DNA of 64,000 nt from Escherichia phage kvi. The DNA is taken from the sequence record MN850615.1; one strand, written 5' to 3'. How positions within the stretch are numbered: position 1 is the stretch's first letter; each line of letters starts with the position of its first letter. Below are positions 60,623 through 61,016 of the stretch, piece after piece. The position numbers and the translations under genes were made by a program. The notes beneath the pieces are model-generated. The model ran no database searches. It was not told where the DNA came from and saw only the letters and a program-made list of their open reading frames with translations.

Positions 60623-60648
60623 TAAAAAAGCCACTCCGAAGAGTGGCT
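60623..60648 (-). terminator. rho-independent terminator
   Basis: AGCCACUC-UUCG-GAGUGGCU hairpin (8-bp stem, tetraloop) followed by UUUUUUAUU on minus strand. Confidence 0.7.
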
Positions 60649-60793
60649 TATAGGGAAGGTAGCGAATCTTCCTTGTCTCCAACCTGCTAGCGGCCTAGCA
60701 AGTGAATGCTTTAGCGTACCGGATCACCCCATACGCTGTAATAAATGCGGCTAGGTGACGTCCAAATCATTCTAACCGCGCTGTCTTTAGTTC
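60649..60793 (-). ncRNA. candidate small RNA or structured 3' UTR (~145 nt)
   Basis: no ORF; bracketed by a TATAAATA late-promoter motif (60806-60799) and a strong terminator; contains hairpins GCGGUUAG…CUAGCCGC and UGCUAG-GCCG-CUAGCA. Confidence 0.2.
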
Positions 60794-60797
60794 ACTA

Positions 60798-61016
60798 TTA
60801 TTTATATCGCTTTCTCTCGCGACGTTTTTGATCTTCTTCCTTGATAGAGTCAAATGCATCAAAAAGGCACATGAGACTGATAATGAACATAACCGTATTT
60901 TCTACGATATCCCACGTCTTCGCATCAGTACAGATCCCCCAAACGGTAAGAAATGCAAATAGTGCAGAAGAGATCACAAGCATGATACTTGCTAAGATAT
61001 AAAAAGTCATTTTCAT
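60798..61016 (-). CDS. small membrane protein (72 aa)
   Basis: two hydrophobic segments, basic C-terminus. Confidence 0.4.
   Translation of the reverse strand: MKMTFYILASIMLVISSALFAFLTVWGICTDAKTWDIVENTVMFIISLMCLFDAFDSIKEEDQKRRERKRYK
60799..60806 (-). promoter_or_regulatory. T4 late-promoter motif TATAAATA overlapping the stop codon of the upstream gene
   Basis: exact TATAAATA on the minus strand; nearest downstream element is the non-coding region ending at the terminator. Confidence 0.35.

What the first reader, a model, noticed from the sequence alone, without database searches (positions are those of the whole stretch)
60623..60806. Candidate small RNA: late-promoter motif, ~145 nt of structured non-coding sequence, then a strong terminator
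A perfect TATAAATA (T4 late-promoter consensus) overlaps the stop codon of the upstream membrane-protein gene. Downstream there is no ORF for ~145 nt; the sequence contains two stable hairpins and ends at a terminator with an 8-bp stem and U-run. T4 carries small stable RNAs (RNA C, RNA D) and tRNAs in the equivalent lysozyme-to-57B interval. I could not fold this region into a tRNA cloverleaf.
Basis: seen in the sequence. Interest (0 to 1): 0.55.

Follow-up and report, generated by a model that had tools for sequence, protein, structure and literature searches.

The report
Conserved structured non-coding RNA, RB49-type phages
Between two small early genes of an RB49-like (Krischvirus) coliphage lies a roughly 170-base non-coding stretch that folds into four hairpins plus a terminator, is better conserved than the genes beside it, matches no known RNA family, and is a credible but unproven new phage small RNA.

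Summary
TATAAATA (60806..60799) overlaps the stop codon of a 72-aa membrane-type ORF. About 145 nt without a conserved ORF follow. An intrinsic terminator closes the stretch (stem 60649..60628, UUCG loop, U-run to ~60621).

The window is a Krischvirus, an RB49-like T4-type coliphage. The stretch folds into four hairpins on the transcribed strand only, and it is the largest ORF-free gap in the 64 kb.

All 58 Krischvirus records carry it. In the most divergent relative, 88.5% identical overall, it is among the best-conserved segments. Its 3' 90 nt are 98.9% identical, against 78.5% for the adjacent ORF. The tip of hairpin 2 is hypervariable, with frame-breaking indels.

All stem substitutions keep pairing, but covariation is thin. 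It is not a tRNA, not a T4 RNA C/D homologue and not in Rfam. It was not found in host genomes, plasmids or the other T4-like phages sampled.

The terminator belongs to a known promoter/stem-loop cassette (PeSL). The late promoter is plausible but unproven: one natural variant lacks it and keeps the RNA.

Most likely this is a functional genus-specific RNA, made as the 3' end of the early dmd operon and perhaps also as a late transcript. Its function is unknown.

The parts
60799..60806 (-). TATAAATA, exact T4-type late-promoter consensus. It overlaps the Tyr-Lys-stop codons of the upstream ORF. The predicted start is about 60793.
   Evidence: Invariant in all aligned sequences except MAVA01000028.1, where a 14-nt deletion removes it. 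Activity was not tested. It is not in the published RB49 late-promoter list.
60798..61016 (-). Upstream 72-aa ORF with two hydrophobic segments (RB49p118 homologue). It is the last gene of the early operon that contains dmd.
   Evidence: It is 78.5% identical in nucleotides to the divergent relative L046.
60747..60779 (-). Hairpin H1: 8-bp plus 4-bp stem with a 2-nt/1-nt internal loop and a UUGGAC loop.
   Evidence: 12 pairs, all paired in 18 distinct sequences. There is one U-A to U-G change in the stem and one C to U change in the loop.
60713..60737 (-). Hairpin H2: conserved 7-bp lower stem with a hypervariable tip (60730..60720) carrying substitutions and 1-2 nt indels.
   Evidence: One pair is seen as G-C, G-U and A-U. 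Two other pairs change to G-U. Diversity pi is 0.105 in the 29-nt H2 segment analysed (60738..60711), against 0.013-0.017 in the rest of the RNA.
60682..60703 (-). Hairpin H3: 9-bp stem with a GCCG tetraloop. The stem is invariant.
   Evidence: The only change is in the loop (G to U in JEP8).
60673..60681 (-). Invariant single-stranded linker UGGAGACAA. It contains GGAG (60680..60677).
   Evidence: It matches the RegB/S1 consensus GGAGRAYARAA only weakly, with C at position 6 (PMC1702504).
60654..60672 (-). Hairpin H4: 5-bp stem (GGAAG/CUUCC) with a 9-nt loop AUUCGCUAC.
   Evidence: There is one A-U to G-U change in L069.
60619..60649 (-). Intrinsic terminator: stem 60649..60628 with a UUCG loop and a U-rich tail. 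It is the stem-loop part of a PeSL cassette.
   Evidence: The PeSL definition and the demonstration that one such stem-loop terminates are in PMC2839356. The loop is inverted in FL15 and is UUAG in L071.
60568..60618 (-). AT-rich UP-like tract and sigma-70-type early promoter (TTGACA 60596..60591, CATAAT 60573..60568) of the next gene. This is the promoter half of the PeSL and is not part of the RNA.
   Evidence: 11 of 12 matches, 17-nt spacer. Annotated as a promoter in GEC-3S.

Best explanation
A Krischvirus-specific structured non-coding RNA element of about 170 nt lies on the minus strand, roughly 60793 to 60621. It consists of four hairpins (H1-H4) joined by invariant single-stranded linkers. 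It ends at the intrinsic terminator of a PeSL cassette.

Shown:
- It is non-coding.
- It is more stably folded than shuffled sequence, on the transcribed strand only.
- It is present in every Krischvirus examined.
- It is kept more constant than the adjacent genes, except for the tip of H2.

Inferred:
- It is necessarily transcribed early, as the 3' end of the sigma-70 operon that starts near 62591 and carries dmd.
- It may also be made late as a discrete RNA of about 172 nt from the TATAAATA embedded in the end of the upstream ORF. That is the layout of 3'-UTR sRNAs such as DapZ and MicL, which have a promoter inside the upstream gene.

Most likely mode of action (inferred, not shown): it works as RNA, in trans, through its invariant linkers and 3' half. 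These would bind a protein or pair with an RNA. The terminator hairpin with its U tail would stabilise the RNA and could dock Hfq or ProQ. The target and the biological role are unknown.
For: Non-coding:
- The only ORFs are 19 and 25 aa. 1-2 nt indels at the H2 tip, U-run length changes and the FL15 loop inversion break or rewrite them.
- Most GenBank records listed annotate nothing under it.

Structure:
- z = -4.05 with the terminator. Without it, z = -2.78 on the minus strand against -0.88 on the plus strand.
- MFE ranks 2nd of 639 windows.
- All 594 cells form standard pairs in 18 distinct sequences.
- By my count, 6 substitution events hit stems, and every one keeps pairing: five to G-U and one completing G-C to A-U. 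G-U pairs only work on this strand as RNA.

Selection:
- Against L046, which is 88.5% identical over 3.4 kb, the RNA is 94.9% identical. Its 5' part is 96.6% and its 3' 90 nt are 98.9%.
- The comparison values are ORF72 78.5%, ORF64 87.4%, dmd 84.8%, 57B 94.7% and the best ORF 96.2%.
- Within 12 isolates, pi is 0.013-0.017 for the RNA against 0.034-0.049 for the two upstream ORFs.

Distribution and layout:
- It is in all 58 phage records with a match, all Krischvirus-type by name or taxonomy.
- It is the largest ORF-free gap in 64 kb.
- A typical PeSL has the upstream stop codon in the AT-rich tract next to the -35 box. Here, 145 extra structured nucleotides are intercalated.

Promoter:
- The 8-mer is exact and unchanged, with no synonymous change, in lineages whose ORF72 differs by about 20%.
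- The other three TATAAATA in the window are canonically placed.
Against: - No expression data exist. No transcriptome of an RB49-type phage was found.
- Covariation is thin. There is one compensatory pair, H3 never varies, and 8 of 500 shuffles reach the observed score, which is within the range the tool warns can arise without structure.
- The genus is shallow and mosaic, so local conservation could partly reflect recombination history.
- The fold z-score without the terminator is only around the 5th percentile of the genome background.
- The late promoter is not in the published RB49 list, and one natural variant has it deleted.
- The TATAAATA count in the window is not above chance.
- No target, partner or homologue is known. 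No complement of 12 nt or more was found in the 64-kb window.
Confidence: 0.58

Rival explanations
1. It is purely a cis-acting 3' UTR. The hairpins only protect or process the 3' end of the early dmd-operon mRNA, for example as an exonuclease barrier or as an entry or exit site for RNase E or RegB. The TATAAATA is a coincidence of Tyr-Lys-stop codons, and no independent or trans-acting RNA exists.
For: - The segment lies between the last stop codon and the operon's terminator.
- A natural variant lacks the TATAAATA but keeps the RNA.
- The motif count is at chance level, and the site is absent from the published late-promoter list.
- GCAUU motifs in both linkers fit the RNase E preference RN|WUU. 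That is my reading of the sequence plus general knowledge, not a tested result.
Against: - Other operons here end with the terminator directly after the stop. For 57B, the stop is at 62636 and the terminator at 62629..62609. A hairpin of -14.3 kcal/mol with a UUCG loop should suffice as a 3' barrier.
- Near-invariance of 90 nt of primary sequence, single-stranded linkers included, is more than a generic stabiliser needs.
- The TATAAATA shows no synonymous change in lineages where the ORF differs by about 20%.
Confidence: 0.25
2. It is a leader or attenuator for late expression of the downstream genes. Late transcripts from the TATAAATA would traverse a regulatory structured leader and either stop at the terminator or read through it into the 61-aa gene and beyond.
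For: The order promoter, then about 145 nt of structured leader, then terminator, then gene is the classic attenuator or riboswitch layout.
Against: - I saw no alternative antiterminator pairing with the 5' arm of the terminator in the sequence or in the MFE and centroid folds.
- No riboswitch or leader family matches, even at E up to 10.
- The downstream gene has its own strong early promoter immediately after the terminator.
Confidence: 0.07
3. It is a non-functional remnant, such as a decayed ORFan or leftover of a former tRNA/RNA gene cluster. It looks conserved only because Krischvirus genomes are young and recombine in blocks.
For: - The genus is shallow, with all 58 database records listed at 96.6% identity or more.
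- The region is a hyperplastic ORFan zone bounded by PeSLs that mediate shuffling.
- SD-like GGAG and AAGGAAG motifs could be a fossil translation start.
- The outgroups carry tRNA clusters in this interval.
Against: - In the divergent lineage it is better conserved than nearly every flanking gene, and its 3' half beats all of them.
- Substitutions avoid stems or preserve pairing, and transversions and indels are confined to unpaired positions.
- Folding is strand-specific.
- There is no tRNA-like signal.
Confidence: 0.08
4. It encodes a micro-protein, either the 19-aa MIWTSPSRIYYSVWGDPVR or the 25-aa METRKIRYLPYKPLFGVAFLLPKIF. Longer ORFs are annotated by PHANOTATE or RAST in some records.
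For: Some GenBank records annotate hypothetical proteins across it, namely FL15, UPWr_E1 and SSG23.
Against: - Indels of 1 and 2 nt put the 19-aa ORF's C-terminus in three different frames.
- The 25-aa ORF runs through the terminator and its stop lies beyond the termination point. It is rewritten by the FL15 loop inversion and frameshifted by U-run length changes.
- Neither ORF has a convincing SD, and the AUG sits inside H1.
Confidence: 0.02

Closest known systems
T4 rnaC and rnaD (species 1 and 2 stable RNAs)
   Same: They are small stable RNAs of unknown function, encoded on the same strand as the early genes. They lie in the interval between the lysozyme gene and 57B of a T4-type phage (PMC3014915).
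   Different: - The T4 RNAs sit next to tRNA genes, and rnaC shows a tRNA-like T-arm (GGTTCGAATCC) in its sequence. From general knowledge, they are processed from the tRNA transcript.
- The candidate has no tRNA neighbours and no T-arm, and it ends at an intrinsic terminator.
- There is no sequence similarity.
- The covariance model of the candidate does not hit the T4 region.
PeSL cassettes (promoter-early stem-loop) of RB49/phi1 (Arbiol et al. 2010, PMC2839356)
   Same: The terminator hairpin, AT-rich tract and sigma-70 promoter at 60649..60568 fit the published description. The FL15 loop inversion fits the reported recombination within the loop.
   Different: A PeSL starts at the stop codon of the upstream gene. 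Here, about 145 nt of conserved structured sequence are intercalated between the stop and the stem-loop. That segment is not repeated elsewhere in the window.
Enterobacterial 3'-UTR-derived sRNAs with an internal promoter (DapZ, MicL) or made by processing (CpxQ, SroC)
   Same: Shared layout: a promoter embedded in the end of the upstream coding sequence and/or maturation from the mRNA 3' end; a terminator shared with the mRNA; a terminal hairpin plus U tail; and conserved single-stranded segments upstream. This comparison rests on general knowledge and on the anatomy.
   Different: - The promoter here is a phage gp55-type late promoter, not a host sigma factor site.
- Hfq or ProQ binding, a seed and targets have not been shown.
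- At about 170 nt with four hairpins, it is larger and more structured than most such sRNAs.
Rfam RNAI (RF00106) and other sub-threshold Rfam hits
   Same: Both show a series of hairpins followed by a terminator-like 3' hairpin.
   Different: The score is 22.8 bits against a gathering threshold of 47. The match is driven by the terminator and the generic hairpin layout, so the candidate is not a member.

Membership tests
tRNA / tRNA-like | Cloverleaf with a T-arm and an acceptor stem | tested here: not met
   ARAGORN finds none in the whole window. There is no tRNA hit in Rfam even at E up to 10.
T4 rnaC/rnaD | Sequence similarity to T4 rnaC or rnaD | tested here: not met
   MAFFT alignment shows no meaningful identity. 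blastn in distant mode finds only Krischvirus. The covariance model finds no hit in T4 e-to-gene 3.
T4 rnaC/rnaD | Located in or next to a tRNA gene cluster, with a tRNA-like 3' domain (T-arm, acceptor) | tested here: not met
   There are no tRNA genes in the window. There is no GGTTCGAAT-type T-loop. The 3' end is an intrinsic terminator.
Any Rfam 15 family | Covariance-model score at or above the gathering threshold | tested here: not met
   Zero matches in the whole window. The best sub-threshold score is 22.8 bits against 47.
PeSL cassette (terminator part only) | Stable stem-loop, an AT-rich tract and a sigma-70 -35/-10 pair upstream of an SD and start codon in a hyperplastic region | tested here: met
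   One search shows the terminator and an 11-of-12 promoter. One search shows the GEC-3S annotation. The definition is in PMC2839356.
PeSL cassette (terminator part only) | The upstream gene's stop codon lies within the AT-rich tract of the cassette | tested here: not met
   The stop is at 60800..60798, about 200 nt upstream of the -35 box. The structured module is intercalated between them.
T4-type late promoter | TATAAATA at -13 to -6 on the transcribed strand | tested here: met
   Exact match at 60806..60799. Consensus as stated in PMC1524935.
T4-type late promoter | gp55/gp33/gp45-dependent initiation late in infection | not testable with these tools
   No transcript data were found. The site is not in the published RB49 prediction list. 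It is deleted in one natural variant.
Hfq/ProQ-type 3'-UTR sRNA | Intrinsic terminator with a U tail of 6 or more, preceded by a single-stranded A/U-rich site | tested here: inconclusive
   The tail is UUUUUUAUU. The upstream spacer CUAUAA is A/U-rich but short.
Hfq/ProQ-type 3'-UTR sRNA | Chaperone binding and a base-pairing target | not testable with these tools
   No extended complement was found in the 64-kb window. No match of about 22 nt or more was found in E. coli genomes or plasmids. Short seeds cannot be assessed with these tools.

The most novel reading that the evidence does not exclude
This would be the first trans-acting regulatory RNA of a T4-type phage. It would be made early as an operon 3' end and late from its own gp55 promoter. 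Its invariant 3' half would engage a host or phage factor. The hypervariable tip of hairpin 2 would be under diversifying selection, either as a specificity determinant between competing Krischviruses or as a way to escape a host RNA-directed defence.
Probability: 0.12. Interest if true: 0.75.

Novelty: new member of a known kind. Interest (0 to 1): 0.5.

Why it matters
[quoted passage not shown] It also states that the roles of RNA C and RNA D are unknown (PMC3014915).

This element gives a concrete, testable candidate in the RB49 group. RB49 has no predicted tRNA genes (PMC1524935), and ARAGORN finds none in this window. The element is short, sharply delimited and present in every isolate. 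It is better conserved than the neighbouring ORFans in a region otherwise known for rapid gene shuffling.

If it is functional, it adds an RNA player to early/late control or host takeover in a family of phages used for therapy. It would also warrant a new RNA family. If it is only a 3' UTR, it still corrects spurious ORF annotations in several GenBank records.

Tried and rejected
- tRNA or tmRNA: ARAGORN finds none.
- Known RNA families: Rfam at gathering and at E up to 10 gives only terminator-driven sub-threshold hits.
- T4 rnaC/rnaD homology: none.
- Host or plasmid origin: no blastn match in 5,426 E. coli genomes or 72,556 plasmids.
- Copies outside Krischvirus: blastn in distant mode at E up to 10 finds none.
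- Exact-pattern scans of IMG/VR, JGI metagenomes and GTDB genomes gave only Krischvirus-type copies. The other 17-21 nt matches lie in unrelated contigs with no similarity beyond the seed.
- The ~50-kb phages that share the downstream 61-aa gene lack the RNA.
- Covariance model R1 gave no hit in T4 or in 57B +/- 10 kb of five other phage genera carrying a 57B homologue. It found no second copy in the window.
- Small ORFs: rejected because of frame-breaking indels.
- RegB processing site at GGAG 60680..60677: a weak match to GGAGRAYARAA, with the disfavoured C at position 6.
- CsrA-type sponge: there are only 4 GGA motifs, near chance, counted by eye on the sequence.
- H2 tip resembling an extended Shine-Dalgarno (GGUGAUCC): this holds in this isolate only and is not conserved.
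- Antisense target within the window: no complement beyond chance.
- Antiterminator pairing for an attenuator model: none seen.
- Published transcript evidence for RB49-type phages: none found.
- First attempt at a genome-wide z-score scan timed out. It was repeated with fewer shuffles.

Full report
**What the window is.** The 801 bases around the finding match 58 phage records at 97-100% identity. The best match is phage FL37 at 99.9%. All 58 are RB49-like T4-type coliphages of the genus Krischvirus. Every gene in this part of the window is on the minus strand.

**The observation.**
- On the minus strand, TATAAATA occupies 60806..60799.
- It overlaps the stop codon (60800..60798) of a 72-aa ORF with two hydrophobic segments.
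- Downstream there is no ORF longer than 25 aa.
- An intrinsic terminator follows. Its stem is 60649..60628, with 9 pairs and a UUCG loop, computed at -14.3 kcal/mol. The tail is UUUUUUAUU.
- TransTerm predicted the same terminator in RB49 (supplement of PMC1524935). It is also annotated in GEC-3S and G5211.
- Immediately after it come an AT-rich tract and a near-consensus sigma-70 promoter (60596..60568) for the next gene.
- Terminator, AT tract and early promoter together are a PeSL cassette. This element is already described for RB49 and phi1 and has demonstrated terminator and promoter activities (PMC2839356).
- In a typical PeSL the upstream stop codon lies in the AT tract. Here, about 145 extra nucleotides sit between the stop and the stem-loop.
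- By a crude ORF cover, 60522..60797 is the largest ORF-free stretch in the 64 kb.

**Is it structured?**
- The 178-nt stretch from just after the TATAAATA into the U-rich tail (60797..60620) folds at -64.4 kcal/mol (z = -4.05; 0 of 200 shuffles).
- Without the terminator, the 142-nt core folds at -47.6 kcal/mol (z = -2.78; 1 of 200) on the minus strand.
- The plus strand gives only -38.9 kcal/mol (z = -0.88; 38 of 200).
- Against 639 equal-length minus-strand windows of this genome, the core ranks 2nd in raw stability. Its z-score is at about the 5th percentile.
- The fold has four hairpins: H1 60779..60747, H2 60737..60713, H3 60703..60682 and H4 60672..60654. They are joined by A/U-rich or purine-rich linkers.

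**Is it coding?** No.
- The 19-aa ORF that starts inside H1 ends in three different frames in different isolates. This is because of 1- and 2-nt indels at the tip of H2.
- The 25-aa ORF that runs through the terminator has its stop codon beyond the termination point.
- That ORF is also rewritten by an inversion of the terminator loop in FL15 and by U-run length changes in Brandy and L046.
- Most GenBank records listed annotate nothing under the core segment. A few automatic annotations place frames there that are not conserved.

**Who has it?**
- All 58 database records with a match carry it, at 96.6-100% identity. All are Krischvirus-type phages by name or taxonomy.
- Nothing similar exists in 5,426 complete E. 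coli genomes or in PLSDB plasmids.
- Nothing similar exists in any other phage record at E up to 10.
- Exact-pattern scans of IMG/VR, JGI metagenomes and GTDB genomes returned only Krischvirus-type contigs. The remaining short matches lie in unrelated contigs with no similarity beyond the seed.
- The next gene downstream has 75-80% protein relatives in ~50-kb phages, and those loci lack the RNA.
- A covariance model of the core (R1) finds nothing in the T4 e-to-gene 3 region. It also finds nothing within 10 kb of 57B in Acinetobacter phage Morttis, Aeromonas phage avDM4, Pseudomonas phage Astolliot, Cronobacter phage leB and Klebsiella phage HMGUkp1. There is no second copy in the window.

**Evidence of selection.** I recovered more divergent copies in two ways. 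One was the pattern scans. The other was a search for homologues of the upstream ORF followed by look-ups of their contigs.
- The IMG/VR contig L046 is 88.5% identical to the window over 3.4 kb.
- Per-region identities against L046:

| Region | Identity to window |
|---|---|
| ORF72 | 78.5% |
| ORF64 | 87.4% |
| dmd | 84.8% |
| 57B | 94.7% |
| Best ORF (ORF149) | 96.2% |
| RNA, whole | 94.9% |
| RNA, 5' part | 96.6% |
| RNA, H2 segment (60738..60711) | 79.3% |
| RNA, 3' 90 nt | 98.9% |

- Among 12 isolates, nucleotide diversity is 0.013-0.017 in the RNA outside H2 and 0.105 in the H2 segment (60738..60711). It is 0.034-0.049 in the two upstream ORFs.
- A non-coding stretch that outlasts nearly all its coding neighbours is under purifying selection at the nucleotide level. 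The caveat is that these genomes are mosaic.

**Support for the fold from variation.**
- In 18 distinct sequences, all 594 cells of the 33 modelled pairs form standard pairs.
- By my count, six independent stem substitutions are seen, and all keep pairing.
- One is U-A to U-G in H1. Two are A-U to G-U and G-C to G-U in H2.
- One H2 pair is seen as G-C, G-U and A-U. One is A-U to G-U in H4.
- Transversions and indels occur only at unpaired positions.
- The wobble pairs are tolerated only on the minus strand as RNA. This argues against a DNA-level element or a plus-strand RNA.
- The formal covariation signal is weak. There is one compensatory pair, 8 of 500 shuffles reach the observed score, and H3 is invariant. 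The fold is supported but not proven.

**The promoter.**
- TATAAATA occurs 4 times in the window against 5.6 expected, so the count alone means nothing.
- All four are on the transcribed strand. The other three lie in intergenic DNA 20-40 nt upstream of an SD and start codon. One of them is the published late promoter Pl:48756 upstream of rI.
- The candidate site is unchanged, without even synonymous substitutions, in lineages whose ORF72 differs by about 20%.
- Against it, the site is not among the 17 RB49 late promoters predicted by Nolan et al. That list also omits the two other well-placed sites in this window.
- Also against it, the contig MAVA01000028.1 has a 14-nt deletion that removes the motif and the stop codon and leaves the RNA core intact.
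- Whether or not this promoter fires, the segment is transcribed as the 3' end of the early operon. That operon runs from the promoter at 62591..62563 through dmd and six or seven small ORFs.

**What it is not.**
- It is not a tRNA.
- It is not related to T4 rnaC or rnaD. It only shares their broad map interval between the endolysin and 57B, where T4, Morttis and avDM4 keep tRNA clusters.
- It is not a member of any Rfam 15 family.
- The GGAG in the H3-H4 linker is a poor match to the RegB/S1 site GGAGRAYARAA.
- I found no antiterminator alternative that would make it an attenuator.
- I found no extended complement to other transcripts of the window.

**Most likely explanation.** This is a genus-specific structured RNA of about 170 nt that functions as RNA.
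- It is produced as the terminal part of the early dmd operon.
- With moderate probability, it is also produced as a discrete late transcript starting near 60793.
- By analogy with enterobacterial 3'-UTR sRNAs, I expect the terminator hairpin and U tail to stabilise it and possibly to recruit Hfq or ProQ.
- I expect the invariant linkers and the 3' half to contact a protein or RNA partner.
- I expect the H2 tip to be free to vary or actively diversifying.
- These steps are inferred. Expression, boundaries, partner and phenotype are all untested.
- The main rival is a purely cis-acting 3' UTR. A fossil, an attenuator and a micro-protein are less likely, for the reasons given under the rival explanations.

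**Verdict.** The RNA C/D analogy is positional only. The independent late transcript remains open. The element is a new candidate RNA family of a known general kind (phage small or 3'-UTR RNA) and is of moderate interest.

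Noticed in passing
L003 (phage FL15) about 952-973; equals window 60628..60649: The terminator hairpin has its loop inverted (TTCG to CGAA) with the stem intact. This fits the recombination within PeSL loops reported for RB49 (PMC2839356).
   Followed up: partly
L037 (MAVA01000028.1) about 3330-3345; equals window 60795..60815: A natural variant has two extra A's and a 14-nt deletion. Together they remove TATAAATA and the ORF72 stop codon, leaving the RNA core intact.
   Followed up: partly
window 60336..60521 (-) and loci L006-L021: The downstream 61-aa gene (DUF7421) has 75-80% protein relatives in ~50-kb IMG/VR phage contigs that lack the RNA. 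This suggests exchange of this small gene between unrelated phage groups.
   Followed up: partly
window 24041..24048 (-): Another exact TATAAATA sits in the loop of a GGGGAG/CTCCCC hairpin followed by GTTTT. A late-promoter motif is thus embedded in a terminator-like stem-loop upstream of a gene.
   Followed up: no
window 19631..19774 (-): This is a second ORF-poor stretch of 144 nt, with three G+C-rich hairpins on the transcribed strand (MFE -39.9 kcal/mol). It may be another non-coding element.
   Followed up: no
window 18052..18193 (-) and 31952..32093 (-): These are the strongest fold z-scores on the minus strand (-7.1 and -6.1). The first starts with a perfect 12-bp hairpin. Neither falls in an ORF-free gap of the crude cover.
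   Followed up: no
L068, L070, L072, L073 (metagenome and Logan contigs): Several assemblies end within or just after the terminator and early-promoter cassette. This is expected if the repeated PeSL sequences break assemblies.
   Followed up: no
GenBank records FL15, UPWr_E1, SSG23 (L003, L027, L024): Automatic annotation places hypothetical proteins across the non-coding segment or its terminator. Frames and strands differ between records, so they look spurious.
   Followed up: partly
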